Of a stretch of DNA of 64,000 bases, positions 31,660-50,932 are shown in pieces. The stretch comes from Actinomycetota bacterium (GTDB taxonomy: Bacteria > Actinomycetota > Acidimicrobiia > Acidimicrobiales > GCA-2861595). The stretch covers positions 7,581 through 71,580 of the forward strand of contig JBQTJJ010000001.1 in the NCBI GenBank assembly GCA_052387235.1, read 5' to 3'. Numbering within the stretch: position 1 is the first letter of the stretch; every line of letters starts with the position of its first letter. The position numbers and the translations under genes were made by a program. A model generated the notes under the pieces. The model was not told where the DNA came from, did not search any database, and saw only the letters and a list, made by a program, of their open reading frames with translations.

Positions 31660-31775
31660 GGCCGAAGCGTAGGCCCTGTTCCAGGCACTCCCTCGACGAG
31701 ATCTTTAGGAAAGGCTTGCACCTTCGAGGCGAGCGACCTACCGTTCACATCTCGTTCACGGGGAGGCTGGGAACC

Positions 31776-32990
31776 ATGCATTTTCAGCGGCTGTTTTCGA
31801 TCGTCGCGGTCGTAGCGCTCGTTGCGACCGGTTGCGGTGATGACGACGATGACGACACCGGTGCCACGCAATCGACCCAGGCGGCCGGGGGTGGCGGGGG
31901 CAGGATCACCGTGGACGTCGATGCCGACACCGACGATCCGAACGCGTTCCACCTCGGGTACTTCCCGGCAGCCGTGAAGGTCCGGCCGGGCGACACCGTC
32001 GTCTACAAGTCCAATTTCACGGGCGAGCCGCACACCATCAGCTTCGGCTCGTTGATCACGCCCGCCATCGAGGCAGTCGAGAACGCCACGCCCGAGCAGC
32101 TCGCAGCGGACGAGCCGCCGCCGGCCTTCGAGCCTTTGCTCAAGTACGCCATGCTCCCGGAGGGCCCCGGCGACGCCAACCAGGTCTCCGCCAACCCGTG
32201 CTTCGTCACGAGCGGCGAGCTCCCGGCCGACACCACCCAACCGTGTGCGGAGCAGGAGCCGGTGCCCTTCACGGGCAAGGAGGTGTTCTACAACTCCGGG
32301 TTCCTCGCTGACGAGGAGGAGTTCGAGGTCAAGCTGGCGGACGACATCGCGCCAGGCATCTACAAGGGCTTCTGCATGCTCCATTTCACCGAGATGGTCT
32401 CCACCATCGAGGTGGTCGCGGACGACGCCGACGCGACGAGCGAGGACGAGGCCCGCGCCCAGGCCGGAAAGGAGCTGGAGGCCGTCACGGCCAAGGCCAA
32501 GGAGGCGTACGAGAAGGCAAAGGCATCGGCCCAGCCCGGTACCGTGCTGTCGGGCGATCCCGTGACCGAGGAGGAAGAGCGGACCGGCCCACCGAAGCCC
32601 AACACGACCGTCGGTCTCGCCGAGTTCACTCCGGCCGAGAGCTCTGTGGCCGCGGGGGATTCTGTGACCTGGACCATCAATGGTCCCCACACCATCACGT
32701 TCAACGCTCCAGAGGACGCCAAGGTGGTGATCGCAAAGGGGCCGGACGGCAACACGCACCTGGTCCAGAAGGCGGTGACGCCGGCGAAGTTCAACGTGCC
32801 GCCCCCGCCCGAGGGGGAACCGGAGGGCCCGCCGCCGACCGTCGACCTCGGTTCCTACGACGGCACAGGCTTCGCCAGCACGGGGCTCCAGTTCGGCGGC
32901 TCGTTCAAGGTCACCTTCACCAAGCCGGGCACCTACAACTACGTCTGTGTCGTCCACCCGGAGATGGAGGGCACCGTCAAGGTGACGTAG
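31776..32990 (+). CDS. Cupredoxin (blue-copper) two-domain lipoprotein
   Basis: ATG 31776 after GGGAGG. Lipobox LVATGCGDD. Two Cys-x-x-His-x-x-Met type sites (GFCMLHFTEM and YVCVVHPEMEG). Confidence 0.8.
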   Translation: MHFQRLFSIVAVVALVATGCGDDDDDDTGATQSTQAAGGGGGRITVDVDADTDDPNAFHLGYFPAAVKVRPGDTVVYKSNFTGEPHTISFGSLITPAIEAVENATPEQLAADEPPPAFEPLLKYAMLPEGPGDANQVSANPCFVTSGELPADTTQPCAEQEPVPFTGKEVFYNSGFLADEEEFEVKLADDIAPGIYKGFCMLHFTEMVSTIEVVADDADATSEDEARAQAGKELEAVTAKAKEAYEKAKASAQPGTVLSGDPVTEEEERTGPPKPNTTVGLAEFTPAESSVAAGDSVTWTINGPHTITFNAPEDAKVVIAKGPDGNTHLVQKAVTPAKFNVPPPPEGEPEGPPPTVDLGSYDGTGFASTGLQFGGSFKVTFTKPGTYNYVCVVHPEMEGTVKVT

Positions 32991-32997
32991 CGGTGGC

Positions 32998-33087
32998 CGG
33001 GCGGATGAACCGGCCTTTCGCCTTGACACCCTGAGGGCCATCCACGTCGGTGTCGAGCACGTCGAGCCGCTCGGGGCCTCACCGAAG
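32998..33087 (-). pseudogene. Decayed fragment of a periplasmic (siderophore-type) binding-protein gene
   Basis: The minus-strand frame reads GPERLDVLDTDVDGPQGVKAKGRFIRP and is bounded by stops. PERLDVLDTDV is identical to residues of the intact gene at 58157-59176. An extra C (33077/33078) breaks the frame relative to that gene. Confidence 0.6.
33043..33084 (+). repeat. Left copy of a direct repeat (partner at 58364-58404)
   Basis: CACGTCGGTGTCGAGCACGTCGAGCCGCTCGGGG (34 nt) is identical at 33043-33076 and 58364-58397. After a 1-nt indel, CTCACCG also matches. Confidence 0.9.
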
Positions 33088-33146
33088 CGTCGGCCCGGGC
33101 AGCAGTGCCGACGCGACCAGCCCGCCCGGTCGGGCAGTGGCTCGGC

Positions 33147-33536
33147 TCACGTGCCGTCGACCGTGGCCTGCCCCGGGTTGGTGATGCTGATCACGCCGCC
33201 CCACGTGCACATGCAGGTGCAGACGTCGGTGAGGGCCGGGGTGCCCCCGATGAGCACGGTGGCGGCGCCGGGCGTCCACGGCGCCGTCGTCACCGGGATG
33301 CACGGCTGGGGCGTCAGCACCCCCGACGCGGCCGACGTGGCCGCCGCCACCTGGGGGTTGGACGGCGTGGTGCACATCCCGAACGGGGCCAGGTTGGCCA
33401 TGGGCACGCTGTCCGTGACGACCGCTCCAGGCGGGCCGCCGGCGTTCGTGCGCTTGGCGGGAGGCACGGTGAGGGTGGACGGGTTGGTACCCATCGTGCA
33501 GGCCACCATCGCACCGGACACGACCAGCTTGGGCAC
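33147..33536 (-). CDS. DUF4280 (PAAR-like) spike-tip protein
   Basis: MPKLVVSGAMVACTMGT.PSTL.V ... PFGMCT ... C.P.T..PW.PG ... GG.PAL ... C.C..GG.I is the DUF4280 pattern. GTG start preceded by GGAAGGGAGG. Confidence 0.8.
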   Translation of the reverse strand: MPKLVVSGAMVACTMGTNPSTLTVPPAKRTNAGGPPGAVVTDSVPMANLAPFGMCTTPSNPQVAAATSAASGVLTPQPCIPVTTAPWTPGAATVLIGGTPALTDVCTCMCTWGGVISITNPGQATVDGT

Positions 33537-33559
33537 GGTCGGAGCCTCCCTTCCTGGGG

Positions 33560-34726
33560 TCAGCGATGGACGAGCTGGGTGAGGCGCACGAGTTGGGCCA
33601 CATCCCGGCCCGACGGGGTCACCGTGGGGGGGACCACCAGGAAGGCGGTCGCGGCAGATGGGCCGCCCCCCACCTCCCCCACCGCCTGCCGGGGCCCGGG
33701 GGCGTCGCCCGGCATCACCAGCATCTGCGTGGAGAAGGATCCGGTGGCGTCGGCGGTGACGGCCTTCTCGCCCAGGCCGGGCAGCCAGCGCAGGGTGACG
33801 GCGGCGTTGGCCGGGTAGCCGGTCCCGTTCAGCTGGGTCACGAAGCCCGGCGGCCCGATGCAGGGCGAGCAGGTCAGCACCACCACGCCCGGCACGGTGG
33901 GCGGGATGGTGGTGGTCGTGGTGGGGATGGTGCTGTCCGGGGTGGTGGGCCTCGTCGTCGATGACGAGGAGGACGACGACGAGGACGAGCTGCTGCTGCT
34001 ACTACTACTGCTGCTGCTTGACGAGGTGGTGGTGCCAGGCGGCTTGCAGGGGACGTTCCAGTCCAGGCGGGCGCTCGCGCCTCGCTGGTCGCCGGCCCGC
34101 ACCGTGTAGCTGCCGGCCGCCGCCTCGGGCTGGGCGGGGACGGCCCAGCCCGTGACCTGCCAGGTGCCGCTGGCGGTGACCGTGGCCGTGATGCGGGTGA
34201 TCACGGTCTCCAGGCGGTAGAAGACCACCGTCACGATGTTCTGGGCCGTCGCCCCCCCCTGCCAGAGCGTCCCCGAGGCGGTGACCGACCAGGTGCCCGG
34301 CGCGGCGGGGCCGCACTGCTCCTCGCCGGTAGCCGCGTACGAGGGCTCGTCGTAGGCCCGCATGTCGGGCACGGACAGGAACGGGGCGCTGGCCGTGACG
34401 TTGAAGCAGGTCGTCCCGCACACCGTCTGGGTGGCCATCACGGTGTAGGTGCCGCCCGCCCGCCGGGCGGGCGCGATCGGGAGGGAGAACATGCCCTGGC
34501 CGTTGGCGGCGGTGCCACCGGCCGGGGCGCCGGCGAAGGTGACGTCGACCTTGCCGTTCGGGGCGAACCCGGTGCCGGTGACGGTGATGGACCATGTGCC
34601 GCTGGTGCCGGCCGGGGCCGACGAAGGGGTGAGGGTGATGGCGGCGCTGCTCTGCGCCGACGCGGCCGGGACCAGGACGGCGCCGGCCAGCAGGGCGGCG
34701 GCGACCAGGACCCGGGCCCGGCTCAT
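33560..34726 (-). CDS. Secreted multi-domain (Ig/IPT-like) protein with 22-Ser linker
   Basis: Sec signal MSRARVLVAAALLAGAVLVPAASA. Repeated beta-rich segments such as ITLTPSSAPAGTSGTWSITVTGTGF. ATG 34726 overlaps the upstream stop (ATGA). Confidence 0.65.
   Translation of the reverse strand: MSRARVLVAAALLAGAVLVPAASAQSSAAITLTPSSAPAGTSGTWSITVTGTGFAPNGKVDVTFAGAPAGGTAANGQGMFSLPIAPARRAGGTYTVMATQTVCGTTCFNVTASAPFLSVPDMRAYDEPSYAATGEEQCGPAAPGTWSVTASGTLWQGGATAQNIVTVVFYRLETVITRITATVTASGTWQVTGWAVPAQPEAAAGSYTVRAGDQRGASARLDWNVPCKPPGTTTSSSSSSSSSSSSSSSSSSSSSSTTRPTTPDSTIPTTTTTIPPTVPGVVVLTCSPCIGPPGFVTQLNGTGYPANAAVTLRWLPGLGEKAVTADATGSFSTQMLVMPGDAPGPRQAVGEVGGGPSAATAFLVVPPTVTPSGRDVAQLVRLTQLVHR
33959..34024 (-). 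repeat. Coding homopolymer: 22 consecutive Ser codons, flanked by Thr/Pro-rich linker
   Basis: Mixed TCG/TCA/AGC/AGT/TCC codons, read directly from the reverse complement. Confidence 0.9.
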
Positions 34727-35997
34727 GTCCCGATGGTCTTCACGAACCCCGCGAGGTAGACGGCAGTTGTGCAGGCCGGGCTGGCGCACTCGACGTGGAG
34801 CGTGACCTTGGTTCCTGGGGACACGATGACGGGTGACACGAAGTGGTAGTCCAAGTCCCGGAAGTTGGCCAGGTTGAGGCGAAGCAGGACCCGGTCACCC
34901 CGCTTCAATTCCACGATACCGCTGTCCCCGGCGGGGTTCTGGAGCACGATGTCGGTGAGCGAGAAGACCTGCTTGTCGCCCACCGTGACGGCATCCTCGA
35001 GCACCCCGGGCCCGTTCACGGCCAGCCTGGCGTCGAACGGGTTCCCGAGGTCCGTCTCCACCTCCTCGGCGCCGGCCTGGGCGCCGGGCGGCGTGCCGCC
35101 CGAGTCCCCGCCCCCGGTGTCGATCTGGGGTGCGGCCGCGCCGACCTGCTTGGCCAGGTCCTGCAGGGCTTCCTCGGTCTGCTCCAGGGGCTCCTCCACC
35201 GCCTCCTTCGCCGCCGACTCCACGGTCGGCTTGAGCAGGGTGAACCACAGGATGACCAGCAGGAGCAGGAGGGCCAGCACGGCCAGGAGGACCTTCCAGA
35301 ACCAGCTGGGCAGGCGGGGCTCTTGGAGATAGGAGCCGTCGACGGTGATCGGCGCGGCGCCGTCCGCCTCCACCGACACCTGGAACGGCAGCGTCTTCGG
35401 CCGCCCCCGCCAGAACGTCTTGAGCGGGCGGACCACGACCTTGGAGAACGTGGCGGTGTCGGGCTCGGCCACCAGCGCAGGGGGCCCGAACGAGAAGCGG
35501 AGCAGGTCGGCCGGGTCGGCGGCGGTGAGCACGGCGTTGACGCGGGTGTTGCCCCGGTTGTCGAGGGCCAGCTCGTGGCGCCCGACCCGGCCGCCGTGGG
35601 AAGTCCGCGGAAGCAGCTCGGCCGAGACGTCGACGAAACCGCCGACCTCGAGGGTGCCCTCCTCCACCATCCCGCCGGCCGGGTCCTCCTTGGACGACAC
35701 CTTGACCGCGAAGGGGATGGCGCCGGACCGGGCCTCCGCCGATCGGGGCACGGTGAAGCGGATGTGGGCGACGCCCTCTGCACCGGGGAACAGCGACAGG
35801 CTGGGTGGGTCGGCGGTGGCCCAGGCGGCGGCGTCGCCGAGGATCTCGAAGGTGAACTGGTCCACGACGGTGCCGGTGTTGCGGAGGCGGACGTCGACGA
35901 CGACGGTCCCTCCGGGCTCGACCTGCAGCGCCGAAGACGAGAGGGAGGCGGTCGCGCCCACGGCCCCGCAACATACGCCCGGGACCTGCGCCGTCAA
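34723..35997 (-). CDS. Bitopic membrane protein: N-terminal Ig/CARDB-like domains, one TM, C-terminal beta-rich domain
   Basis: No signal peptide. LQVEPGGTVVVDVRLRNTGTVVDQFTFEILG resembles CARDB/NEW3-type Ig folds. TM helix WFWKVLLAVLALLLLLVILWFTLL sits at about aa 235-258. Start is TTG 35997 or GTG 35961. Confidence 0.65.
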   Translation of the reverse strand: MTAQVPGVCCGAVGATASLSSSALQVEPGGTVVVDVRLRNTGTVVDQFTFEILGDAAAWATADPPSLSLFPGAEGVAHIRFTVPRSAEARSGAIPFAVKVSSKEDPAGGMVEEGTLEVGGFVDVSAELLPRTSHGGRVGRHELALDNRGNTRVNAVLTAADPADLLRFSFGPPALVAEPDTATFSKVVVRPLKTFWRGRPKTLPFQVSVEADGAAPITVDGSYLQEPRLPSWFWKVLLAVLALLLLLVILWFTLLKPTVESAAKEAVEEPLEQTEEALQDLAKQVGAAAPQIDTGGGDSGGTPPGAQAGAEEVETDLGNPFDARLAVNGPGVLEDAVTVGDKQVFSLTDIVLQNPAGDSGIVELKRGDRVLLRLNLANFRDLDYHFVSPVIVSPGTKVTLHVECASPACTTAVYLAGFVKTIGT

Positions 35998-36155
35998 AGG
36001 GCCCCGGGGAAGCCACCGGGGCAGCTCGCACTGCCCGTTCGGGTGACCTTCGCGGGAGGCCCGTTCGGGCCGTCCCGTGTGGAGCGCGCGTAGAGCCGTT
36101 GCGGAGGGGACCGTGCAAGAGTGCGGGCCCGGCGGGGGAAGGAGCAGGAACGAAA

Positions 36156-36782
36156 GTGGCCGATCGCATCCCCGTGTTCGTCTATGCCGCGGACCCGATC
36201 TCCCAGGCCGGGCTGGTGGCGCAGCTCCGCAGCCGGCCGGAGGTGACCGTCGTGGCCGCGGGCGACGTGGACACCGCCGTGGTGGCCATCGTCCTCTGCG
36301 ACGAGATCGACGACGAGGCCCTCAAGGCGGCCCGGGCCGTACAGCGCAACGGCTGTCCCAAGCTGGTGCTGGTGGCCACCCGCCTCGACGACGCCGGCCT
36401 CCTCCGGGCCGCGGAGACCGGCGCCAGCGGCCTCTTGCGCCGGAGCGAGGCCTCGCCCGAGCGCCTGGTGACGTGCGTCCGGTCGGCCCTGGCCGGCGAC
36501 GGGGCCGTCCCGCCCGACCTGCTGGGCCGGCTGCTCGACCAGGTGGGCCGCCTGCAGCGCCAGGTGCTGGCACCCCGCGGCCTCACCATGAGCGGCATGG
36601 CCGAGCGGGAGCTGGAGGTGCTCCGGCTCGTGGCCGACGGCCTCGACACGGCCGAGATCGCCAGCCGGCTCTCCTACTCGGAGCGCACGGTGAAGAACGT
36701 CATCCACGACATCACGTCCCGCTTCCAGCTGCGCAACCGGGCCCACGCCGTCGCCTACGCCGTGCGGGAGGGCCTCATCTGA
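36156..36782 (+). CDS. LuxR-family regulator with receiver-like N-terminal domain (atypical), no adjacent kinase
   Basis: GTG 36156 after GGGGGAAGGAGCAGG. C-terminal ERELEVLRLVADGLDTAEIASRLSYSERTVKNVI HTH. The N-terminal domain has only one Asp in the usual DD position and no clear conserved Lys. Confidence 0.8.
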   Translation: MADRIPVFVYAADPISQAGLVAQLRSRPEVTVVAAGDVDTAVVAIVLCDEIDDEALKAARAVQRNGCPKLVLVATRLDDAGLLRAAETGASGLLRRSEASPERLVTCVRSALAGDGAVPPDLLGRLLDQVGRLQRQVLAPRGLTMSGMAERELEVLRLVADGLDTAEIASRLSYSERTVKNVIHDITSRFQLRNRAHAVAYAVREGLI

Positions 36783-36803
36783 CCGGCTGACCCCGCCGGC
36801 GCC

Positions 36804-36853
36804 GGACTGGTAGCGGAACTGGTGCCCAGGGGGACCGATCCCGCTACCAGTCC
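36804..36853. promoter_or_regulatory. 13-bp perfect inverted repeat (hairpin/operator candidate) between the LuxR gene and the CIS operon
   Basis: GGACTGGTAGCGG (36804-36816) and CCGCTACCAGTCC (36841-36853) are separated by 24 nt that is itself partly self-complementary. Confidence 0.5.
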
Positions 36854-36946
36854 TGGCGGCGCGGGCCGAAAGGGCACCGGGAGCTGCCCGAACGGCTGCA
36901 CGGCGGCGGCTGGGCGGCGGCGGGCGGGGCTGGAATCGTCGCGACG

Positions 36947-37696
36947 GTGATCCACGACGTGGACGAGTCGCTCCGCCGGTTGCTGCGCCGGGACGCCCTC
37001 AACGGCTCCGACGTGGAGGTGGCGTTCGACGCGCCCACCAAGGAGTGGGCCGCGTCCCGGAACACGCCCAGCGTCGACGTCTACCTGTACGACATCCGCG
37101 AGAACATGCGCCGGCGGGACGTGATGTACGAGGAGGTCCGGGACGAGGACGGGCGGGTCCTCGCCCGCCGCCCGCCGCCCCGGCGCTTCGACCTCTCCTA
37201 CCTCCTCACCGCCTGGACGCAGCGGCCCGAGGACGAGCACCGCCTCCTGGCCGCCTGCCTGGGTTGCTTCCTGCGCTACGAGGTCCTCCCCGAGGAGGTG
37301 CTGGCCGGCGCCCTGGCCGACCAGGACCGGCCCGCCCACGTGCACATCGCCCTCCCACCGGCCGAGGACCGCAACATCTCCGACGTGTGGTCGGCGCTCG
37401 GGGGCGAGCTGAAGCCGTCCCTCGACCTGGTGGTGACCGCGCCGTTCGTGACGGGCCGCTCGGTGGACGTGGGCGCCCCGGTGCTGGAGGGACCGCTGCT
37501 GCGCATGCGGGGCGACGGCGTGGGGGAGGCGGCCGGCGCCCCGACCGTGACCGCCGCCAGGCCCGGCGCCGGCGGCCGGCGGCCCCGGGCCCCGGCCCGG
37601 CAGAAGCGGGCCCTGGCCGAGGAGCTGGTGCAGGGTGCCAAGGGCGAGGACCAGCCCGGGCGCAGCTTCTGGCTCAAGCAGCTGGAGTCGCCGTGA
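36947..37696 (+). CDS. CIS tail terminator/cap protein (DUF4255, Afp16/Pvc16-like)
   Basis: MIHDVDESLRRLLRRD ... VEVAFDAPTKEW ... PSVDVYLYDIREN ... DLSYLLTAW is the DUF4255 signature. GTG start. Confidence 0.85.
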   Translation: MIHDVDESLRRLLRRDALNGSDVEVAFDAPTKEWAASRNTPSVDVYLYDIRENMRRRDVMYEEVRDEDGRVLARRPPPRRFDLSYLLTAWTQRPEDEHRLLAACLGCFLRYEVLPEEVLAGALADQDRPAHVHIALPPAEDRNISDVWSALGGELKPSLDLVVTAPFVTGRSVDVGAPVLEGPLLRMRGDGVGEAAGAPTVTAARPGAGGRRPRAPARQKRALAEELVQGAKGEDQPGRSFWLKQLESP

Positions 37697-39810
37697 GCGG
37701 CCCCGGGAGCTCGCCCGTGCGGCCCTCGCCCTCGACAGCGCCGGGACGCAACGGCGGCCCGGTGCCGGCCGGGGCCGACCCGTCGCTGGCCCAGCTGCTG
37801 GCCCGGCTGGCCGCCGTGGAGGCCCGGGTGCGCGAGGAGGTGGGCCGGCGGCGGGCGCGCGACGCGGCCCCCGACGACCGCTTCCGCGGCCTCTACATCT
37901 CCGAGGCCCAGGTCGACGAGCTGCTGTCGGGGCCCCGCCCCCGGCCGGCCGGCCGGACCGCAGCGGCGACGCCGCCACCGGGGAGCCGCGACCGGGCCGG
38001 CGCCGGGCCGACCCGGCTGGAGCGCCTGGCCGGCGCCTTCGCCCTCGACGACGTGGACCTCGACCTGGTCGTCGTCGCCCTGGCGCCAGACCTCGACCCC
38101 CGCTTCGAGCGGCTGTACGGCTACCTCCACGACGACGTGACCAGGCGGCGGGCCAGCACCGGGCTGGCCCTGGAGCTGTGCGGTCTCGGGCTGGCGTCGG
38201 CCGAGCGCCGCCGCCTGGGCGAGGCCGGGGCGCTGTGCCGGGGCGGCGTCCTGGTGGTGGGCGAGCCCGAGCGACCCTTCCCCACCCGCTCCCTGCGCGT
38301 GCCCGACCGGGTCGCCCTCCACCTCCTGGGCGACCCCACGCCGGAGCCGTCGCTGGCGGGGCTCGTCATGACCACGGCCCCCCTCGCCAGCCGGGCGTCG
38401 TCCGATCTGGCCCGCGCCCTGGCCGCCGGGACCCGGCTCGCGTACCTGCGGGAGCGCCCCGGTGCGTCGGGCCACGCCACCGCCGCGGCCGCCTTCGCGG
38501 CTGCGGGGTGGCCGGCCGTCGTCCTGGACCTGCGCCGGCTGGCCCCCGGCGCCGACGCCGCGGTCATGGCCGCCACCGCGGTGAGGGAGGCGCGCCTGCT
38601 CGGCGCCGGCCTGGTGGCCGGCCCGGTCGAGGGGCTGGCCGAGCGGGACGTGGCCGCCCTGCGCACCATGGCCGACGTCACCTGGCCGGTGGTGCTGGTG
38701 GGGGGCCGGGGCTGGGACCCGGGGTGGTCGGCCGACGTGCCGCTGCTCCTGGATGCGCCGGCGCCGGCGCCGTCCCAGCGCGCCTCGCTGTGGCTGGCGG
38801 CCCTGTCCGGCGCGGGGGCGGAGGCCGTCGACGCGGCCGCGGCCACCACCCACTTCACCCTCTCGCCCGACCAGGTGTGGCGGGCGACGGTGACGGCCCG
38901 GCTGCGGGCCGAGGCCGAGGGCCGACCGCTGGGCGCCGGCGACCTGGGGCACGGCGCCCTGGCCCAGAACGGCGCCGGCCTGGAGCGGCTGGCCCGGCGC
39001 GTCGAGCCGGAGGTCGGCTGGGACGACCTGGTGCTGCCGGCGCCGGTGCTGCACCAGCTGCGGGAGCTCACCGTCCGGGCCCGCCTGGGCGACACCGTGT
39101 TCGGCGACTGGGGCCTGGGCCGTGGCCACCGGGGCCACCGCAGCCTCAGCGCCCTGTTCGCCGGGCCGTCGGGCGTCGGCAAGACGATGGCCGCCGAGGT
39201 GGTGGCCGGCGACCTGGGGCTCGACATGTACGCCATCGACCTGGCCACCGTCGTCGACAAGTACATCGGGGAGACGGAGAAGAACCTCGACCGCATCTTC
39301 ACCGAGGCGGAGCGGGTGAACGGGGTGATCTTCTTCGACGAGGCCGACGCCCTGTTCGGCAAGCGCTCCGAGGTCAAGGACGCCAGGGACCGCTACGCCA
39401 ACGTGGAGGTGGCCTACCTGCTCCAGCGGCTGGAGGCGTTCACCGGCATCGCCGTGCTCGCGACCAACCTGCGCAACAACGTGGACGAGGCCTTCGCCCG
39501 CCGCCTCGACGCGGTGGTGGACTTCCCGCTGCCCGAGGAGCCCGAGCGGCTCCGGCTCTGGGAGCACTGCCTGGGCCCGCTGGTGCCGAGGGCGCCCGAC
39601 CTGGACCTGGCCTTCATGGCCCGCTCCTTCAGCCTCTCGGGCGGCAACATCCGCAACGTGACCGTGGCCGCCGCCTTCAGCGCGGCGAGCCGCAGGGAGG
39701 AGGTCACCATGGCCGATCTGGTCCGGGCCACCCAGCGCGAGTACCGCAAGCTGGGCCGCCTGTGCGTGGAGGCCGAGTTCGGCCCCTGGCTCGAGGTGGT
39801 GGCGCCATGA
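37693..39810 (+). CDS. CIS AAA+ ATPase (Afp15/Pvc15-like)
   Basis: GTG 37693 overlaps the upstream stop. Walker A FAGPSGVGKT, Walker B VIFFDEADALF, ATNL...D.A..RR. Long N-terminal non-ATPase region, as in Afp15-type proteins. Confidence 0.88.
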   Translation: MSGPGSSPVRPSPSTAPGRNGGPVPAGADPSLAQLLARLAAVEARVREEVGRRRARDAAPDDRFRGLYISEAQVDELLSGPRPRPAGRTAAATPPPGSRDRAGAGPTRLERLAGAFALDDVDLDLVVVALAPDLDPRFERLYGYLHDDVTRRRASTGLALELCGLGLASAERRRLGEAGALCRGGVLVVGEPERPFPTRSLRVPDRVALHLLGDPTPEPSLAGLVMTTAPLASRASSDLARALAAGTRLAYLRERPGASGHATAAAAFAAAGWPAVVLDLRRLAPGADAAVMAATAVREARLLGAGLVAGPVEGLAERDVAALRTMADVTWPVVLVGGRGWDPGWSADVPLLLDAPAPAPSQRASLWLAALSGAGAEAVDAAAATTHFTLSPDQVWRATVTARLRAEAEGRPLGAGDLGHGALAQNGAGLERLARRVEPEVGWDDLVLPAPVLHQLRELTVRARLGDTVFGDWGLGRGHRGHRSLSALFAGPSGVGKTMAAEVVAGDLGLDMYAIDLATVVDKYIGETEKNLDRIFTEAERVNGVIFFDEADALFGKRSEVKDARDRYANVEVAYLLQRLEAFTGIAVLATNLRNNVDEAFARRLDAVVDFPLPEEPERLRLWEHCLGPLVPRAPDLDLAFMARSFSLSGGNIRNVTVAAAFSAASRREEVTMADLVRATQREYRKLGRLCVEAEFGPWLEVVAP

Positions 39811-40964
39811 GAGGGCGCGCCCATGTCGAGGCCGAGGAACGGGTCCCGGTCGCCAGGCCGGCGCCCGCGCCGGCCGGCCCCGCCGTCGCGACCGAGCCGG
39901 GCCTGGCCGGCGGCCTCCTCGGCCTCCAGGCCACCGCCGGCAACGCGGCGGTGGGGAGTCTGGTGGAGCGGCGCGGGAGCGGCCCGTGCCCCTGCGGCGG
40001 CAGCGGTGGCGACTGTGCCTGCGAGGCCGGGAGGGGCGACGAGCAGGGGGAGGATCGGGCAGGCGAGGCCCTCGACCCCGGCGCCCGCGCCTTCCTGGAG
40101 GCCCGCTTCGGGCGGGACCTGGGCGACGTGCGGGTCCACACCGGTGCCGGGGCGGCCGCCTCGGCCGAGTCGGCCGGCGCCGAGGCGTACACCACCGGCA
40201 AGGACATCGTGTTCGCCCCGGGCGCCTACCGGCCCGACTCGCCCGAGGGCCGCCACCTGCTGGCCCACGAGGTGGCCCACACCCTCCAGCCCGAGCGCGG
40301 GCCGGCCCCGTCCGGGCCCGTCTCCCGCCCCGGCGACCCGGCCGAGGTGGCCGCGGCCCGGGCCGCCGATGCCGTCGCCGCCGGCGCCGCCCCGGCCCGG
40401 CTCGGCAGCCGGCCGGCCGGGGTGGTGCACCGCCAGGCCGAGGACGAGGAGGCCGCTCCCCAGCCGGTGCCGGACATGAGCGGGACCGGGGAGGTGACCG
40501 AGGTGCAGGCCATGGCCAACATCTCCCTGCCCGGACGGACCGATGCCAGCTTCTCCAGCTCGTTCACGACCCAGGGCGCCACCCGCAGGCGCGGCGAGGG
40601 CGGCTGCGACACCGTCGCCGGGAACATGGTGAACACCTTCACCGTGTCGACCACGGTGACGCTGCCGCCGGTCCCGGACGGGCTCACCGAGTGCCAGGCC
40701 GCCAACGCCCAGCGCTTCATCGACACGATCCTCGCCCCGCACGAGCAGGAGCACGTGGCCCACTTCAACACCTACAACGGGACGTCCACCGTGCCGTTCA
40801 GCCTGACGGTCTGCGCCGGCGACGACCTCCAGGCCATGATCCAGGCCGAGCACGACACGGCCCAGTCCACCCGGCAGGCCGCGGCCCAGGCCCTCAGCGA
40901 CTCCATCGACCCGTTCAACGTCGACGTCGACATCGACGCGGGCTGCGAGGCACCGGCGGAGTGA
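39807..40964 (+). CDS. DUF4157 protein (intact HEVAH) with Cys cluster and unknown C-terminal domain carrying a second HExxH; candidate CIS cargo
   Basis: ATG 39807 overlaps the ATPase stop. LQATAGNAAV ... FLEARFGRDLGDVRVHTG ... AYTTGKDIVFAPG ... LLAHEVAHTLQ matches DUF4157. CPCGGSGGDCAC lies upstream. HEQEH at nt 40740-40754. Confidence 0.8.
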   Translation: MRGRAHVEAEERVPVARPAPAPAGPAVATEPGLAGGLLGLQATAGNAAVGSLVERRGSGPCPCGGSGGDCACEAGRGDEQGEDRAGEALDPGARAFLEARFGRDLGDVRVHTGAGAAASAESAGAEAYTTGKDIVFAPGAYRPDSPEGRHLLAHEVAHTLQPERGPAPSGPVSRPGDPAEVAAARAADAVAAGAAPARLGSRPAGVVHRQAEDEEAAPQPVPDMSGTGEVTEVQAMANISLPGRTDASFSSSFTTQGATRRRGEGGCDTVAGNMVNTFTVSTTVTLPPVPDGLTECQAANAQRFIDTILAPHEQEHVAHFNTYNGTSTVPFSLTVCAGDDLQAMIQAEHDTAQSTRQAAAQALSDSIDPFNVDVDIDAGCEAPAE

Positions 40965-41013
40965 TCAAGGCGGGTGCCGGCGCACCCGGACCCGAACGAG
41001 AGGAGCCTGACCG

Positions 41014-42381
41014 ATGGCCGGAGCCGGACGAGCGAGGAGGCCGGGGGGTGAGGAGGCCCGCCACCCGGAGCGCGCCGTGGCCCCGGCCCGGCCGGCGCCG
41101 GCGCCCGCCGACGACGCGGCACCGGAGCACTCCCCCCTGCTCGACCTGCAGCGCCAGGTCGGCAACGCCGGTGTGCAGGAGCTGGTCGACCTGGCCGGGT
41201 CGGAGCCGGGGCGGCCGCTCGACCCCGACGTGCGGGCCTCGATGGAGGCGTCGTTCGGCCGGTCGTTCGCCGGCGTCGAGGTCCATGAGGGACCGGCCGT
41301 CGACCGGGCCGCCGAGGGGCTCGGCGCCGCCGCCTTCGCGGCCGGGGAGGACGTCTTCCTGCGATCCGACGTCGACCCCGGGACGCCGCCGGGCCGGGAG
41401 GTGCTGGGTGAGGAGCTGGCCCACGTGGCCCAGGGGGTGGGCGCGAACCGCGCCGCCCACCTGCTGCCGCCAGAGGGCGGGGTCGAGCAGGAGGCCCACC
41501 GGGCCGCCCACGAGGCGGCCGAAGGGCGGCCCGCGGCGGTGAGCTTCGCCCCGGCCGCCGCCACCGGCGTCGGCCGCTTCCTCGACCCCATCAGCCTCGG
41601 TGTCATCGGGGGCATCGGCTACGGGGTCAAGAAGCTCTACGAGGAGCTCACCGAGGAGGAGGTGGAGGCGACCAAGCCCGACCCCGACCAGCCCACCCAG
41701 GCGACCGTCGATGCGATAAAGGGCGGTGTCCCGCCCCAGCTCGACGCCGCCGTGGCCAAGCTGGGCGGTGACCCGACCCCGGCCAACAGCAAGGCCGCCG
41801 CCGCCTCCCTCTCCTCGGTGAAGGACTTCCTGATCGGCCAGCTGCCCCCCACCAACCAGGGGCCGGTGATGTCCGTGCTGCTCACCGTGACAGGGGCCAT
41901 CAACACCCTGGAGGCGGCGGCCGACCCGACCGGTGTGCTCAAGGAGCTGCAGGGCAGCGTGGCCGCCAAGAAGGCCGAGCTGGACGGGCTCGTGGCCAGC
42001 GCCAAGGAGCCGGCCGTGGGACCGGACGGCAAGGAGCTGCCGCCGGACGCGCTCACGCCCGACCAGGCGTCGATCCTGAGCAGCGGGCCGGTGGTCTGGA
42101 TGGGCGAGGCGGCCACCATGCTGGCCGAGCCGGAGCCCGATCCCGATCTGATCGCCGGCAAGCTCGACGGGGCGGCCGGCGCCATCCGCAGCGTGAACGC
42201 GCCGCCGGCCGTCCTGCCGCAGCTGACCAAGATCGCCTTGAACTGCGGGTTGTACGCGGAGACGGCCAAGGCGACCAAGCTCACCGTGGCCGAGTCCGTC
42301 CCCCAGGCCATGGCGCAGCTCGAGGCGGCCAAGTCGATGATCGCCGAGCTGGGCGTGCCGCCCGAGATCCCGCCGGAGTGA
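41014..42381 (+). CDS. DUF4157 protein (degenerate metal motif EELAH) with helical C-terminal domain; candidate CIS cargo
   Basis: LQRQVGNAGVQELV ... MEASFGRSFAGVEVHEG ... AFAAGEDVFL ... LGEELAHVAQG. The C-terminal about 270 aa is Ala/Leu/Lys/Pro-rich and I do not recognise it. Confidence 0.75.
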   Translation: MAGAGRARRPGGEEARHPERAVAPARPAPAPADDAAPEHSPLLDLQRQVGNAGVQELVDLAGSEPGRPLDPDVRASMEASFGRSFAGVEVHEGPAVDRAAEGLGAAAFAAGEDVFLRSDVDPGTPPGREVLGEELAHVAQGVGANRAAHLLPPEGGVEQEAHRAAHEAAEGRPAAVSFAPAAATGVGRFLDPISLGVIGGIGYGVKKLYEELTEEEVEATKPDPDQPTQATVDAIKGGVPPQLDAAVAKLGGDPTPANSKAAAASLSSVKDFLIGQLPPTNQGPVMSVLLTVTGAINTLEAAADPTGVLKELQGSVAAKKAELDGLVASAKEPAVGPDGKELPPDALTPDQASILSSGPVVWMGEAATMLAEPEPDPDLIAGKLDGAAGAIRSVNAPPAVLPQLTKIALNCGLYAETAKATKLTVAESVPQAMAQLEAAKSMIAELGVPPEIPPE

Positions 42382-42388
42382 CGGGGCC

Positions 42389-42416
42389 GCCGGCCTGCCC
42401 GTAGGGGCAGGCCGGC
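42389..42416 (+). terminator. Perfect 12-bp stem / 4-nt loop hairpin between the cargo genes and the sheath gene
   Basis: GCCGGCCTGCCC-GTAG-GGGCAGGCCGGC starts 8 nt after the stop at 42381. It is followed only by TT, so the U-tract is weak. Confidence 0.5.
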
Positions 42417-42506
42417 TTACCCGGAGGCACGCCCGGCCGGCCCTACCGGCAGCCCGGGCCCGGCGCCATCCTCGCCTCCGACCGACCTTGTGCGAGGAGG
42501 GGCCGC

Positions 42507-44045
42507 ATGCCTCAGTACCTTTCGCCCGGCGTCTACATCGAGGAGAAGGAGCCCGGCGCCCGACCCATCGAAGGGGTGGCGACGGCAGTGGCCGCCTTCG
42601 TCGGCGTGGCGACCCAGGGACCGTTCAACACGCCCACCCTCGTCACGAACTGGACGCAGTTCACCCAGACGTTCGGGGACTTCGCCGAGGGCTCCTACCT
42701 GGCCCACGCCGTCTACGGGTACTTCCTCAACGGCGGCGGCAGCGCCTACATCGTGCGCATCGGCGACGACGCCTCGGCCGGCGCCGCCCCGCCGGCCCGG
42801 GCCGAGCTGATGAGCGCCAGCGACACCACCATCGGCGCCTACCGGGTCAACGCCCTGGAGCCCGGAACGACGGGGAACGACATCACCGTCGAGGTGCAGG
42901 ACGCCTCGGAGCCCGGCCCCGAGACCTTCAAGCTGGTGGTGCGCAAGGGCAGCACCGAGGAGACCTTCGACAACCTCACCACCAGGCGGGGCCGGCAGAA
43001 CGCGGTCACGGTGGTGAACCAGCAGTCGCAGCTCGTCCGGCTGGAGGAGATCGGCACCGCGGCGGCGGTCGAGCGCCGGCCCGCCTCGGGCGTGGCCACC
43101 CTGGGCGGCGGCGGCGCCGTGCCCACGCCGGCCAGCATCTCGGCCGAGGACTACGTGGGCAACTCGGCCGACCGCACCGGCTTCGGTGGGCTGGAGGCCA
43201 TCGACGACGTCACCATGGTGAGCGTCCCCGACATCATCGCCGCCTACGAGCGGAACATGATCGAGCTGGAGGGCCTCCAGGCCGTGCAGCTGGCCATGAT
43301 CGCCCACTGCGAGCTGATGGGCGACCGCATGGCCATCCTCGACCCCCCGCCCGGCCTCAACGCCCAGCAGATCAAGGAGTGGCGGGTCGACAAGGCCGGC
43401 TACGACTCCAAGTACGCAGCCCTCTACTGGCCCCGGATCAGGGTCTTTGACCCCGCCTCGGGCCAGAACATCTACGTGCCGCCCAGCGGGCACATGGCCG
43501 GGATCTGGGCCCGCACCGACGGCACCCGGGGCGTCCACAAGGCCCCGGCCAACGAGGTCGTGCGGGGCGCCATCTCCCTCGAGACGAACATCACCAAGGG
43601 CGAGCACGACAGCCTGAACCCGGTGAACGTGAACTGCATCCGCGCCTTCCCGGGCCGGGGCGTGCGCGTCTGGGGGGCCCGGACCCTGTCCAGCGATCCC
43701 GGGTGGCGCTACGTCAACGTGCGCCGCCTCTTCAACTACGTGGAGAAGTCGATCCTGGGCGGGACCCAGTGGGTGGTGTTCGAGCCCAACGACAACCTGC
43801 TGTGGGGGGCGGTCAAGCGGACCATCGCCGCCTTCCTCTACCGGGTGTGGCTGGACGGCGCCCTCTTCGGCACCACGCCCGAGCAGGCCTTCTACGTGAA
43901 GTGCGACGACGAGACCAACCCCCAGGAGGTCATCGAGGCGGGGCAGGTGGTGTGCGAGATCGGCATCGCCCCCGTCAAGCCGGCCGAGTTCGTGGTGTTC
44001 CGGCTGGCCCAGCTGCCGTCCGGCACGTCGGCCCTCTCCGAGTAG
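42507..44045 (+). CDS. Contractile tail sheath protein (Afp2-4/Pvc2-4-like)
   Basis: MPQYLSPGVYIEE....RPIEGV.T..AAFVG ... NPVN.IR.FPGRG..VWGARTL is the canonical sheath N- and C-terminal signature. Confidence 0.93.
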   Translation: MPQYLSPGVYIEEKEPGARPIEGVATAVAAFVGVATQGPFNTPTLVTNWTQFTQTFGDFAEGSYLAHAVYGYFLNGGGSAYIVRIGDDASAGAAPPARAELMSASDTTIGAYRVNALEPGTTGNDITVEVQDASEPGPETFKLVVRKGSTEETFDNLTTRRGRQNAVTVVNQQSQLVRLEEIGTAAAVERRPASGVATLGGGGAVPTPASISAEDYVGNSADRTGFGGLEAIDDVTMVSVPDIIAAYERNMIELEGLQAVQLAMIAHCELMGDRMAILDPPPGLNAQQIKEWRVDKAGYDSKYAALYWPRIRVFDPASGQNIYVPPSGHMAGIWARTDGTRGVHKAPANEVVRGAISLETNITKGEHDSLNPVNVNCIRAFPGRGVRVWGARTLSSDPGWRYVNVRRLFNYVEKSILGGTQWVVFEPNDNLLWGAVKRTIAAFLYRVWLDGALFGTTPEQAFYVKCDDETNPQEVIEAGQVVCEIGIAPVKPAEFVVFRLAQLPSGTSALSE

Positions 44046-44093
44046 CAGCAGGCCCACCGGCGGCACCACCCCGCCCCAGAAAGGAGCGCGTCC

Positions 44094-44537
44094 ATGCCCA
44101 TCGGCGAACACCCGATCGCGGGTTACAGCTACCACGTCGAGATCAGCGGCGTCACCATGGCCCAGTTCAAGTCGGCCGAGGGCCTCGGCATCAAGATCGG
44201 CGTCATCGAGCACCGGGAGAACAAGCTGACCGGCCTGCCCGTGCTGAAGAAGCTGCCCGGCCACGTCCAGTACAGCGACATCACCCTCAAGCGGGGCAAG
44301 GTCAACGACAAGGTCTTCTGGGACTGGATCAAGCAGGTGGCCGACGGCGACATCGACGGGGCCCGCAAGGAGGGCTCGGTGGTGCTGTTCGACTACGCCC
44401 ACGGCGAGGTGGGGCGCTTCGACTTCGAGGGCGCCTGGCCCAGCGACGTGAACGTGGGCGCCCTGGACGCGGCGGGCGACGAGGTCCTGCTCGAGAGCCT
44501 CACCATCACCATCGAGAAGCTCAACGTCCCGGCCTAG
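44094..44537 (+). CDS. Tail tube protein (T4 gp19-like, Afp1-like)
   Basis: Y.V.I.G...A.F....GL...I.V.E.RE ... G.V.Y.DITLKRG...D..FWDW pattern. RBS AAAGGAG. Confidence 0.9.
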   Translation: MPIGEHPIAGYSYHVEISGVTMAQFKSAEGLGIKIGVIEHRENKLTGLPVLKKLPGHVQYSDITLKRGKVNDKVFWDWIKQVADGDIDGARKEGSVVLFDYAHGEVGRFDFEGAWPSDVNVGALDAAGDEVLLESLTITIEKLNVPA

Positions 44538-44541
44538 GACG

Positions 44542-44949
44542 ATGACCCCGCCCGTCGCCGAGGCCGACCAGCAGGCCGGCCTGCACACCGAGTTCAGCTT
44601 CGAGCTGCCCGTGGGGTACGTGGACGGCTCCGGTGCCGTGCACAGGAGCGGCGTCATGCGCATGGCCACGGCGCGCGACGAGATCATGCCGCTGCGCGAC
44701 CCCCGCGTCCTCGACAACGAGGCCTACCTCTCGGTGATCCTGCTGGCGCGCGTCGTCACCCGGCTGGGCACGGTGACGTCGGTGAACCCCGGGGTCATCG
44801 AGGGCCTGTTCGCCGCCGACCTGGCCTTCCTCCAGGACCTCTACCGGCGGGTCAACCAGGAGGGCCACACCCGCGCCGCCGTCAGCTGCCCGTCCTGCCA
44901 GCACGAGTTCGCGGTCGACGTGGCCGGTGGTCGCCCGGGGGAATCGTGA
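44542..44949 (+). CDS. Conserved CIS protein at the tail-assembly-chaperone position, with C-terminal CxxC
   Basis: Sits between tube and tape-measure-like genes. FELPVGYVDGSG.VHRSGVMRMATARDE ... CPSCQHEF. Function is inferred from position only. Confidence 0.6.
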   Translation: MTPPVAEADQQAGLHTEFSFELPVGYVDGSGAVHRSGVMRMATARDEIMPLRDPRVLDNEAYLSVILLARVVTRLGTVTSVNPGVIEGLFAADLAFLQDLYRRVNQEGHTRAAVSCPSCQHEFAVDVAGGRPGES

Positions 44950-45110
44950 CGTACGCGCCCGACCGTCTGTTCGAGGAGGTCGCGTACGTGGCGTACCACT
45001 TCCACTGGCCGCTCGCCGAGATCATGGACCTGGAGCACCCGCTGCGGCGTCGCTTCGTGGAGGAGATCGGCGCCATCAACCGGCGCCTGTCCGAGCACCA
45101 GGGGGCCTGA
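44946..45110 (+). CDS. Small conserved CIS-associated protein (54 aa; not in the supplied ORF track)
   Basis: GTG 44946 overlaps the upstream stop (GTGA). Translation: VTYAPDRLFEEVAYVAYHFHWPLAEIMDLEHPLRRRFVEEIGAINRRLSEHQGA. It resembles the short protein usually encoded here in actinobacterial CIS loci (I believe DUF6760; to be verified). Confidence 0.6.
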   Translation: MTYAPDRLFEEVAYVAYHFHWPLAEIMDLEHPLRRRFVEEIGAINRRLSEHQGA

Positions 45111-45117
45111 CGAGGCC

Positions 45118-47616: not shown

Positions 47617-47620
47617 GGAG

Positions 47621-48055: not shown

Positions 48056-48058
48056 CCG

Positions 48059-48721: not shown

Positions 48722-48731
48722 GGGGAGGAGC

Positions 48732-50931: not shown

Positions 50932-50932
50932 G

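What the first reader, a model, noticed from the sequence alone, without database searches (positions are those of the whole stretch)
33043..33084. 34-nt perfect direct repeat (partner 58364-58404) brackets the CIS block; the left copy is a relic of the siderophore-binding-protein gene
Seen in sequence:
- CACGTCGGTGTCGAGCACGTCGAGCCGCTCGGGG occurs at 33043-33076 and 58364-58397 on the same strand, 25,321 bp apart. Identity extends to 41/42 with one indel.
- The right copy lies about 210 nt from the 3' end of the intact binding-protein gene and encodes SPERLDVLDTDV.
- The left copy lies in a stop-bounded, frameshifted fragment (GPERLDVLDTDVDGPQGVKAKGRFIRP) squeezed against the cupredoxin stop.
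- Everything between the copies is the CIS locus plus the STAND-SARP regulator.

Inference: either the about 25-kb block was acquired by insertion or recombination into the 3' part of that gene, leaving a displaced gene end, or the left copy is the scar of a deleted paralogue. I saw no integrase.
Basis: partly seen in the sequence, partly recalled or inferred. Interest (0 to 1): 0.65.

Follow-up and report, generated by a model that had tools for sequence, protein, structure and literature searches.

The report
Orphan 42-base gene-fragment copy beside injection-system block
A 42-base piece of an intact iron-uptake gene has a second, non-coding copy 25 kb away on the far side of a phage-tail-like injection-system gene block; it is most likely a harmless DNA-repair scar, not the site where the block was integrated, although the block has clearly changed its place in the genome.

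Summary
The repeat is real. A perfect 34-mer (41/42 with one indel) lies at 33043-33084 and 58364-58404. These are the only two copies in the 2.56-Mb Acidimicrobiales MAG, and similarity stops abruptly on both sides.

The right copy is native. The Peripla_BP_2 gene is intact and colinear with its orthologues through the repeat to the stop codon. Each orthologue carries a single copy.

The left copy is an orphan patch in the 156-nt spacer between the convergent cupredoxin and DUF4280 genes.

The CIS+SARP block has moved:
- G004 and forest-soil contigs carry the same block (84-86% nt in G004) between a CarboxypepD_reg gene and (seen in G004) a YgfZ-like gene.
- Those two genes are adjacent on C101 of this genome, which is an empty site.

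The block's borders are the DUF4280 stop (33147) and about 30 nt upstream of the SARP ATG (~58015). Both repeat copies lie outside them.

There is no recombinase on the contig and no compositional contrast. G004's block has no comparable bracket repeat in the short flanks available.

Best reading (0.55): a lineage-specific scar of illegitimate joining or template switching, with no function.

An att or Campbell origin, a paralogue relic and an antisense role are less likely.

The parts
33043..33084 (.). Left (secondary, orphan) copy of the 42-nt segment: a perfect 34-mer, one extra C, then 7 matching bases
   Evidence: It lies outside the GC3 coding frame and is stop-bounded on the minus strand. 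No relative has a counterpart.
58364..58404 (-). Right (source) copy, codons for VSPERLDVLDTDV inside the intact binding-protein gene
   Evidence: The same 41-mer is present once in each orthologue: 0 mismatches in L070/L071, 1 in G011 and L072, 2 in L073.
32991..33146 (.). 156-nt lineage-specific spacer between the convergent cupredoxin and DUF4280 stops, holding the left copy
   Evidence: Outside the patch it has only background matches (17 nt or less) in the genome. It does not align with the DNA downstream of cupredoxin orthologues or downstream of DUF4280 in other carriers of the block. It folds no better than shuffles, has no promoter or terminator consensus and no Rfam hit.
32990..33021 (+). 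Hairpin followed by UUUCGCCUU just after the cupredoxin stop; a possible terminator upstream of the patch
   Evidence: -17.9 kcal/mol, z = -1.6. Weak evidence.
33085..33146 (-). Two hairpins just after the DUF4280 stop; a possible terminator region upstream of the patch on the minus strand
   Evidence: inverted repeat I5, 8/8; -37.8 kcal/mol for 33078-33146, z = -1.7. Weak evidence.
31716..32990 (+). Cupredoxin (plastocyanin/azurin-like) lipoprotein gene, left neighbour
   Evidence: Pfam PF00127. The closest homologues are 75-79% identical. Its downstream neighbour differs between lineages.
33147..58015 (.). Relocatable CIS+SARP block, about 24.9 kb, running from the DUF4280 stop to about 30 nt upstream of the SARP ATG
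   Evidence: Pfam hits: DUF4280, Pvc16_N, AAA ATPase, eCIS_core (three), sheath, tube (two), CIS_tube/LysM, Phage_base_V, gp25 and Baseplate_J. G004 contigs match at 84-86% nt from 33147 to 58012. The contexts diverge directly after the DUF4280 TGA.
33147..33536 (-). DUF4280 (PAAR-like) gene, leftmost gene of the block
   Evidence: PF14107, E = 7e-33. Orthologues at 85-88% lie in three different left-hand contexts.
55061..57985 (-). SARP-STAND regulator gene, rightmost gene of the block
Evidence: ORF translation. G004:C470 matches window 56720-58012 at 85%.
58013..58156 (.). Right junction spacer between the block and the binding-protein stop
   Evidence: It is shared neither with G004, whose homology ends at 58012, nor with G011, whose homology starts at 58156.
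58157..59206 (-). Intact iron-siderophore-type substrate-binding protein gene (Peripla_BP_2)
   Evidence: PF01497. It is 86% aa and 88% nt identical to G011:C308 over its full length with no break at the repeat. A 91% orthologue exists.

Best explanation
The left copy is an orphan secondary copy of 42 nt taken from inside the intact binding-protein gene. It lies in non-coding DNA where the cupredoxin gene and the first CIS gene end tail to tail.

It was created in this lineage by illegitimate (homology-independent) DNA joining or replication template switching. Three routes would give this result:
- a short templated patch of the SPDIR or filler-DNA type;
- the remnant of a 25.3-kb tandem duplication that was later trimmed;
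- a local copy made in the old cupredoxin/binding-protein spacer, when the two sites were only a few hundred bases apart, and later separated by insertion of the block.

Both copies belong to the DNA flanking the block, not to the block, and neither is a recombination site. The patch probably has no function. Its only foreseeable effect is to offer a 34-nt direct repeat at which rare deletion could remove the whole CIS+SARP block and truncate the binding-protein gene.

Shown: the copy is real, is orphan, has its source in the gene, and lies outside the borders of a block that has relocated. Inferred: the mechanism and the neutrality.
For: - Only two copies exist, with perfect identity and abrupt edges.
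- The right copy is ancestral. The gene is colinear with G011 and with orthologues at 87-91%, each of which has one copy.
- G011 differs from the right copy at one base, where the left copy matches this genome's own gene.
- The left copy lies outside any GC3 coding frame, in a spacer that is unalignable in all relatives.
- Comparison with G004 and G011 puts the block's borders at 33147 and about 58015, and the start of the binding-protein module at 58156. The repeats are therefore not at the junctions.
- The block is mobile. The site it occupies in G004 and JX_forest is empty on own C101, and the two flanking genes align contiguously in six other family genomes from four genera.
- Ku is present, so non-homologous end joining is plausible.
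- Ectopic patches of 3 to about 100 bp from intragenomic donors are a described mutation class (bioRxiv 10.1101/2023.11.22.568220).
- The patch lies beyond terminator-like hairpins on both strands, where neutral DNA would be tolerated.
Against: - No ancestral, uninterrupted cupredoxin/binding-protein junction could be found. The mechanism and the order of events are therefore inferred.
- Junction microhomologies cannot be evaluated without that sequence.
- A donor 25 kb away that happens to sit within about 350 nt of the opposite end of the same block, in direct orientation, would be a coincidence of order 1e-4 for a random long-range patch. This argues for some link with the history of the locus.
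- The same genome holds two small cassettes bracketed by 31-39-nt duplications of a gene end. Repeat-bracketed insertion is thus a real process in this genome.
- Perfect identity does not prove recency. The 39-nt repeat of the TA cassette is perfect here but has diverged in G004.
- The reads could not be inspected.
Confidence: 0.55

Rival explanations
1. The two copies are the actual crossover sites of block integration. They would be attL/attR of an integrative island, Campbell-type single crossover of a circle carrying the 42-nt homology, or a long target duplication. The element would supply a replacement 3' end for the binding-protein gene, and the displaced native end would have been deleted later.
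For: - The repeats are direct and bracket a block shown independently to be relocatable.
- The left copy sits only 62 nt from the block's left end.
- Two other insertions in this genome are bracketed by 31-39-nt direct repeats that duplicate a gene's 3' end, and they carry no recombinase.
Against: - The gene's last 207 nt are orthologous to G011's, with no change in identity at the repeat. Homology to G011 ends at the stop codon, not at the repeat.
- The block shared with G004 excludes both copies and carries no binding-protein fragment.
- No displaced 3' end lies beside the left copy.
- No recombinase gene was found in the block or on the contig.
- G004's block has no bracket repeat; the longest shared direct string is 9 nt, though only 176 nt of left flank are available.
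- Composition shows no contrast.
Confidence: 0.15
2. The patch is a functional antisense element. Read-through transcripts of the cupredoxin gene would carry 34 nt (41/42) perfectly complementary to the binding-protein mRNA, which would couple copper-protein expression to iron-siderophore uptake.
For: - The orientation fits. The patch is on the cupredoxin sense strand, 52 nt after its stop, and is antisense to the minus-strand gene.
- Perfect identity is retained.
Against: - A terminator-like hairpin with a U-rich tail precedes the patch.
- The patch has no promoter consensus, no structure beyond shuffles and no Rfam family.
- No relative has a counterpart downstream of a cupredoxin or binding-protein orthologue.
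- There are no expression data.
Confidence: 0.08
3. The patch is the last remnant of a second binding-protein gene (paralogue or tandem duplicate) that once lay next to the cupredoxin gene and was otherwise deleted.
For: - Paralogues and pseudogenised copies of this gene family exist in family members (G011:C616, G020:C73 in tandem, and G010:C80 with frameshifts and stops).
- The minus-strand frame of the patch is open for 33 codons.
Against: - Known paralogues are 62% aa identical or less, which is incompatible with 34/34 nt identity.
- Similarity ends abruptly on both sides instead of decaying.
- Only 52 and 62 nt of spacer flank the patch, so two separate deletions ending exactly at its edges are needed.
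- This genome has a single gene of this family at the search threshold.
Confidence: 0.07
4. The patch is an assembly or binning artefact of the metagenome-assembled genome.
For: - The genome is a fragmented MAG (182 contigs).
- Reads could not be inspected.
- No second assembly of this locus exists in the protein collection.
Against: - Contig ends overlap by 127 nt, consistent with k=127, and a 42-nt repeat cannot cause a join at that k.
- Neither flank of the left copy continues into the binding-protein gene, so two chimeric joins without shared k-mers would be needed.
- The left copy differs from the source by an indel.
Confidence: 0.03

Closest known systems
[quoted passage not shown]
   Same: A short stretch (3 to about 100 bp) is copied from an ectopic place in the same genome into an unrelated site. 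The edges are sharp, there is no flanking homology and no dedicated recombinase (bioRxiv 10.1101/2023.11.22.568220).
   Different: SPDIR was defined experimentally in Acinetobacter baylyi, using the recipient sequence and the microhomologies at both crossovers. Here the pre-event sequence is unknown, so the defining microhomologies cannot be checked. The donor's position at the other end of the same block also suggests a link to the locus's rearrangement history.
attL/attR direct repeats of genomic islands integrated into the 3' end of a gene
   Same: Direct repeats of a few tens of bp, one of them inside a gene near its 3' end, bracket a 25-kb accessory block that occupies different sites in related genomes.
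   Different: There is no recombinase. The repeats are not at the block's borders. The gene's 3' end is native rather than element-borne, there is no displaced pseudo-end, and there is no compositional contrast.
Remodelled tandem duplication (duplication followed by partial deletion)
   Same: The copies are in direct orientation, exactly one unit (25,321 bp) apart. The secondary copy abuts the start of the unit, and both joins look like blunt, microhomology-free joins.
   Different: There is no direct evidence that a duplication ever existed here. This is a formal possibility inferred from geometry only.
Actinobacterial cytoplasmic CIS loci (Streptomyces CIS type) as horizontally moving gene blocks
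   Same: The gene set matches: sheath, tubes, spike, gp25, baseplate J, Pvc16 cap, AAA ATPase and DUF4157/eCIS_core proteins. The locus is patchily distributed in the family, with sheath hits in 6 of 22 genomes.
   Different: Here the whole block, with its SARP regulator, is shown at three different chromosomal sites. Its borders are tight to gene ends, and the alternative site is empty in this genome. This concerns the surroundings of the finding, not the repeat itself.

Membership tests
Integrative island with attL/attR | Site-specific recombinase (tyrosine or serine integrase) in or beside the element | tested here: not met
   The Pfam hits of the ORFs scanned between the repeats include no integrase. 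The four PF00589 hits of the genome lie on C119, C52 and C70, and none on C1. Serine recombinases and DDE transposases were not searched separately.
Integrative island with attL/attR | Repeats coincide with the borders of the inserted DNA | tested here: not met
   Homology with the G004 block spans 33147-58012, and homology with the G011 binding-protein module starts at 58156. The copies lie 63 nt and about 350 nt outside the block.
Integrative island with attL/attR | Target gene's 3' end replaced by an element-borne copy, with a displaced native end at the far repeat | tested here: not met
   Identity to the G011 orthologue is continuous across the repeat (0.95-0.98 before it, 0.83-0.95 after, which is within the range seen elsewhere in the gene). 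No similarity to the gene's last 207 nt is found next to the left copy.
Integrative island with attL/attR | Empty site with a single repeat copy and contiguous flanks in relatives | tested here: inconclusive
   Orthologues have a single copy. No relative has cupredoxin next to the binding-protein gene, and nothing closer than 79% (cupredoxin) or 91% (binding protein) exists in the collections.
SPDIR / templated short-patch insertion | Patch of about 3-100 bp identical to an ectopic donor in the same genome, with no flanking homology | tested here: met
   The patch is 42 nt at 41/42 identity, the donor lies 25,321 bp away, and the flanks are at random identity.
SPDIR / templated short-patch insertion | Microhomologies between donor and recipient at both crossover points | not testable with these tools
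   This needs the recipient sequence before the event, and no conspecific or ancestral spacer is available.
Transposon target-site duplication | Short duplication (usually 2-14 bp) directly abutting terminal inverted repeats, plus a transposase | tested here: not met
   The repeat is 42 nt long and is not adjacent to the block ends. No transposase domain appeared among the Pfam hits, and no inverted repeat beyond short hairpin arms was found near the patch.
CRISPR mini-array (self-targeting spacer) | Spacer flanked by two copies of a direct repeat | tested here: not met
   No direct repeats were found in 32960-33160 at seed 6.
Diversity-generating retroelement TR/VR pair | Reverse transcriptase nearby; TR/VR of about 100 nt or more differing at adenines | tested here: not met
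   No reverse transcriptase appears among the Pfam hits. The copies are identical at all adenines and are only 42 nt long.
Multi-copy interspersed repeat (REP/MITE-like) | Many genomic copies, usually palindromic and intergenic | tested here: not met
   There are only two copies and one is coding. The genome's true REP-like families have different sequences.
Contractile injection system locus (context of the finding) | Sheath, tube, spike, gp25/baseplate J, cap and AAA ATPase genes in one cluster | tested here: met
   Pfam hits PF04984/PF17482, PF06841 (two), PF19266, PF04717, PF04965, PF04865, PF14065, PF00004, PF14107 and PF13699 (three).

The most novel reading that the evidence does not exclude
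The 34-42-nt bracket may be the footprint of an undescribed, recombinase-independent way of inserting gene cassettes. That process would duplicate 30-40 nt of a neighbouring gene. The same genome shows it at three scales:
- a 0.7-kb mazEF-like cassette with a 39-nt repeat;
- a 1.45-kb low-GC two-gene islet with a 31-nt repeat;
- the 25-kb CIS+SARP block with the 34-42-nt repeat.

If so, this would explain how whole injection-system loci hop between chromosomal sites without carrying an integrase.
Probability: 0.1. Interest if true: 0.6.

Novelty: new member of a known kind. Interest (0 to 1): 0.27.

Why it matters
By itself the repeat matters little. It is a small scar that mainly warns against reading every pair of direct repeats around an accessory block as att sites.

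Its surroundings are more useful. They give a clean natural example of a complete CIS locus, with its SARP regulator, behaving as a discrete unit of about 24.9 kb. The unit sits at different chromosomal sites in related Acidimicrobiales. Its borders are tight to gene ends, the alternative site is empty, and the unit carries no mobility gene.

The 34-nt direct repeat is also a plausible substrate for spontaneous loss of the whole block, which would at the same time damage the iron-uptake gene.

Tried and rejected
- Extended homology around the copies: sensitive blastn (word 7) found nothing beyond 41/42.
- Other patches in the spacer: only background matches of 17 nt or less.
- An 18/21 match between the sequence just right of the left copy and the reverse complement of a hairpin in the binding-protein/SARP spacer: not significant, since 52 of 1000 dinucleotide shuffles did as well.
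- RNA element: folds of the spacer and of the patch on both strands are no better than shuffles (z between -1.0 and +0.5). There was no promoter or terminator consensus and no Rfam match above noise.
- CRISPR mini-array: no flanking repeats.
- DGR TR/VR pair: no reverse transcriptase and no adenine differences.
- SARP operator: the two TCGAGC units are 9 nt apart, not the 11-nt spacing known (from my own knowledge) for SARP heptamer repeats. The left copy is at convergent gene ends, not at a promoter.
- Composition: the block's tetranucleotide distance is at the 66th percentile of 25-kb genome chunks. GC is 0.752 against 0.741, and GC3 is 0.96 against about 0.94.
- Empty cupredoxin/binding-protein junction: searched in 41 relatives, in the 5.8-billion-protein collection, and in seven context look-ups on five top homologues plus two DUF4280 homologues. 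None was found.
- Public collections: the exact 34-mer occurs only in the G011 orthologue among GTDB species representatives, and nowhere in the JGI metagenome contigs.
- Bracket repeats around G004's copy of the block: none found, with the longest shared direct string 9 nt.
- A tblastx run timed out and was replaced by tblastn.
- The first attempt to match G004's 176-nt left flank to own C101 by blastn failed. It was resolved through the longer JX_forest contigs.

Full report
**1. The observation**

The 34-mer CACGTCGGTGTCGAGCACGTCGAGCCGCTCGGGG is present at 33043-33076 and 58364-58397 on the same strand. No further match exists at up to 3 mismatches in the window, and none appeared in 100 shuffles.

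The window is C1:7581-71580 of a 2.56-Mb, 182-contig assembly. Names attached to homologues place it in the Acidimicrobiales. In the whole assembly the 34-mer occurs only twice, even allowing 5 substitutions.

Identity continues for 7 more bases after a 1-nt indel, giving 41/42. It then drops to background on both sides.

Contig ends in this assembly overlap by 127 nt, consistent with a de Bruijn assembly at k=127. A 42-nt repeat cannot have produced a false join at that k. Neither flank of the left copy continues into the binding-protein gene.

**2. Anatomy**

GC3 frame analysis and Pfam searches give the following map.

| Coordinates | Strand | Feature |
|---|---|---|
| 31716-32990 | + | Cupredoxin |
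| 32991-33146 | . | 156-nt spacer holding the left copy |
| 33147-33536 | - | DUF4280, PAAR-like |
| up to ~55092 | mixed | Further CIS genes: Ig-like, membrane protein, LuxR, Pvc16 cap, AAA ATPase, three eCIS_core/DUF4157 proteins, sheath, two tubes, LysM tube, spike, gp25, baseplate J, Zn-ribbon/F5_F8 protein |
| 55061-57985 | - | SARP-STAND regulator |
| 57986-58156 | . | 171-nt spacer |
| 58157-59206 | - | Intact Peripla_BP_2 gene, holding the right copy |
| 59306 onward | + | Two ABC exporter genes |

The right copy encodes VSPERLDVLDTDV, 207 nt upstream of the stop.

The left copy is non-coding. The minus ORF 33079-33603 that ends beside it is not in the GC3 frame. The fragment itself reads *GPERLDVLDTDVDGPQGVKAKGRFIRPATATSP*.

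The patch sits between a hairpin with a U-rich tail just after the cupredoxin stop and two hairpins just after the DUF4280 stop. Both are only weakly better than shuffles (z about -1.6).

**3. Which copy is the original**

The binding-protein gene aligns with its orthologue in G011 (another genus of the family) at 88% nt over its whole length. There is no discontinuity at either edge of the repeat, and homology ends exactly at the stop codon.

Closer orthologues from metagenomes (91%, 88%, 87%) each contain the 41-mer once, with 0-2 mismatches. None has a second copy in the DNA available downstream.

G011 differs from the right copy at one base, and at that base the left copy agrees with this genome's own gene.

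The right copy is therefore native, and the left copy is a secondary copy made in this lineage.

**4. Is the block an insertion, and do the repeats mark it?**

No organism closer than 79% (cupredoxin) or 91% (binding protein) exists in the collections.

The reciprocal evidence exists, however. G004, a different genus, carries the same block at 84-86% nt.
- Its contig C192 matches the window from exactly 33147, the DUF4280 stop.
- Its contig C470 matches up to 58012, which is 27 nt beyond the SARP start codon at 57985. The hand alignment follows the similarity a few bases further, hence the border of about 58015 used in this report.

To the right of the G004 block lies a YgfZ-like gene. To its left, and likewise in two independent forest-soil assemblies (L068, L069), lies a CarboxypepD_reg lipoprotein gene.

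In this genome those two genes are adjacent on contig C101, only a few bases apart. Their DNA aligns as one contiguous match in six other family genomes from four genera. That adjacency is therefore ancestral, and the block is a derived insertion there.

A third context, DUF4280 convergent with an FAD/BBE oxidase gene, occurs in L066 and L067. All contexts diverge immediately after the DUF4280 TGA. Own/G004 similarity on the other side ends about 30 nt upstream of the SARP ATG.

Three conclusions follow:
- The CIS+SARP block (33147 to about 58015) is a relocatable unit.
- Both repeat copies lie outside it, 63 nt to the left and about 350 nt to the right.
- The binding-protein gene was not its target.

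The block carries no recombinase. It is not compositionally distinct: its tetranucleotide distance is at the 66th percentile, GC is 0.752 against 0.741, and GC3 is 0.96 against about 0.94. G004's copy shows no bracket repeat, although only 176 nt of its left flank are available.

The left junction also coincides with a change of gene neighbourhood. In G009, G003 and a farmland contig, the cupredoxin orthologue is followed by a multicopper-oxidase-like gene of about 1470 aa, whose orthologue here is on C114. In the two closest homologues it is followed by a glyoxalase-like gene.

**5. What the patch is**

- A decayed paralogue would not be 34/34 identical with sharp edges, and the genome has a single gene of this family at the search threshold.
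- An att or Campbell origin predicts an element-borne gene end, a displaced native end and repeats at the borders. None of these is seen (section 4).
- A CRISPR mini-array, a DGR pair, a REP family and a known RNA were each tested and rejected.

What remains is an ectopic short copy made by homology-independent joining or template switching. The size class (3 to about 100 bp) and the intragenomic donor match SPDIR-type microindels. Ku is present in the genome.

The geometry argues against a purely random long-range patch. The copies are direct, exactly one block-plus-flank unit apart, and the donor lies within about 350 nt of the block's other end. Two explanations fit better:
- The copy was made when the two sites were neighbours in the old convergent spacer, and the block later came between them.
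- The copy is the remnant of a tandem duplication of the 25.3-kb unit that was trimmed by deletion.

These variants cannot be separated without an ancestral sequence. All of them make the patch a neutral scar.

The antisense idea has the right orientation: read-through cupredoxin transcripts would pair perfectly with the binding-protein mRNA. It has no positive support.

**6. Background for short repeats in this genome**

Among 395 exact repeat pairs of 30-60 nt, 80 are isolated, meaning both flanks are below 50% identity. Most of these are palindromic REP-like families or local tandem repeats.

The present pair is one of the few distant two-copy pairs in which one copy is coding and the other is not. 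Two others bracket real small insertions:
- A 39-nt repeat surrounds a mazEF-like cassette after a yebC-like gene.
- A 31-nt repeat surrounds a 1.45-kb low-GC islet after the map gene.

In both, the repeat includes the gene's stop codon and abuts the insert, unlike here. They keep alive, at low probability, the idea that repeat-bracketed insertion is a general process in this organism.

**7. Verdict**

The repeat is a real but ordinary scar. It is a new instance of a known kind, with low intrinsic interest. The most useful by-product is the demonstration that the whole CIS+SARP locus is a discrete, integrase-less unit found at three chromosomal sites, with an empty site in this genome.

Noticed in passing
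window 33147-58015; G000:C101:8234-10034 (outside the window); G004:C192 and C470; L066-L069: The whole CIS+SARP block occupies three different chromosomal contexts in related Acidimicrobiales. The site it occupies in G004 and JX_forest, between a YgfZ-like and a CarboxypepD_reg gene, is empty in this genome. The two genes align as one contiguous match in six other family genomes. In G003, G006 and G015 they lie on separate contigs, so that site may be an insertion hotspot.
   Followed up: partly
G000:C47:8221-8945 (outside the window): A mazEF-like toxin-antitoxin cassette of about 0.65 kb is bracketed by a perfect 39-nt direct repeat that duplicates the last codons and stop of a yebC-like gene. 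Across the family this site holds inserts of different size: none in G005 and G008, about 1.3 kb in G016 and about 3.3 kb in G006. G004 has the same cassette, but its two repeat copies have diverged.
   Followed up: partly
G000:C139:33012-34522 (outside the window): A 1.45-kb low-GC islet (57-65% GC against about 75%) encodes a secreted protein and a small membrane protein. It is bracketed by a perfect 31-nt direct repeat that duplicates the 3' end and stop of the methionine aminopeptidase gene. Relatives have the flanking genes on different contigs.
   Followed up: partly
window 58157-60734 against G011:C308 (L025): The binding-protein/ABC module is unusually similar to that of G011, which belongs to another genus: 88% nt overall, with 93-98% over long stretches of the binding-protein gene. 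The cupredoxin reaches only about 75-80% against that genus. This suggests recent exchange of the siderophore module. The closest orthologue (91%) sits on contigs from two different runs that both end 32 nt after the stop, which hints at a variable junction there.
   Followed up: partly
window 57986-58156: Only about 30 nt upstream of the SARP start codon are conserved with G004, so the block seems to bring no promoter for its own regulator. Here the SARP gene lies co-directionally 171 nt downstream of the iron-siderophore binding-protein gene. Read-through could therefore tie expression of the CIS regulator to iron status. This is speculative.
   Followed up: no
window 31716-32990; G000:C114:2811-8745 (outside the window): In three relatives the cupredoxin gene is followed by a multicopper-oxidase-like gene of about 1470 aa. 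In this genome that gene's orthologue (77% aa) lies on C114, convergent with a 40%-identical cupredoxin paralogue and close to an ORF that looks like a transposase by eye (C114:1-1521). The ancestral pair appears to have been split in this lineage.
   Followed up: partly
G000, many contigs (e.g. C41:11885, C171:5212, C131:1014, C47:50717; C153:4885, C160:8582): Two families of palindromic interspersed repeats of about 45-50 nt are present. One is strikingly AT-rich for this genome (CTCCCGAGTAAATAGCTCGCCAATTTGGCGAGCTATTTACTCGGGA). The other is TTCCGGGAAGCCTGACGTTCGCCAGGCGGACGTGAGCCTTCCCGGAAC. They look like REP or MITE elements.
   Followed up: no
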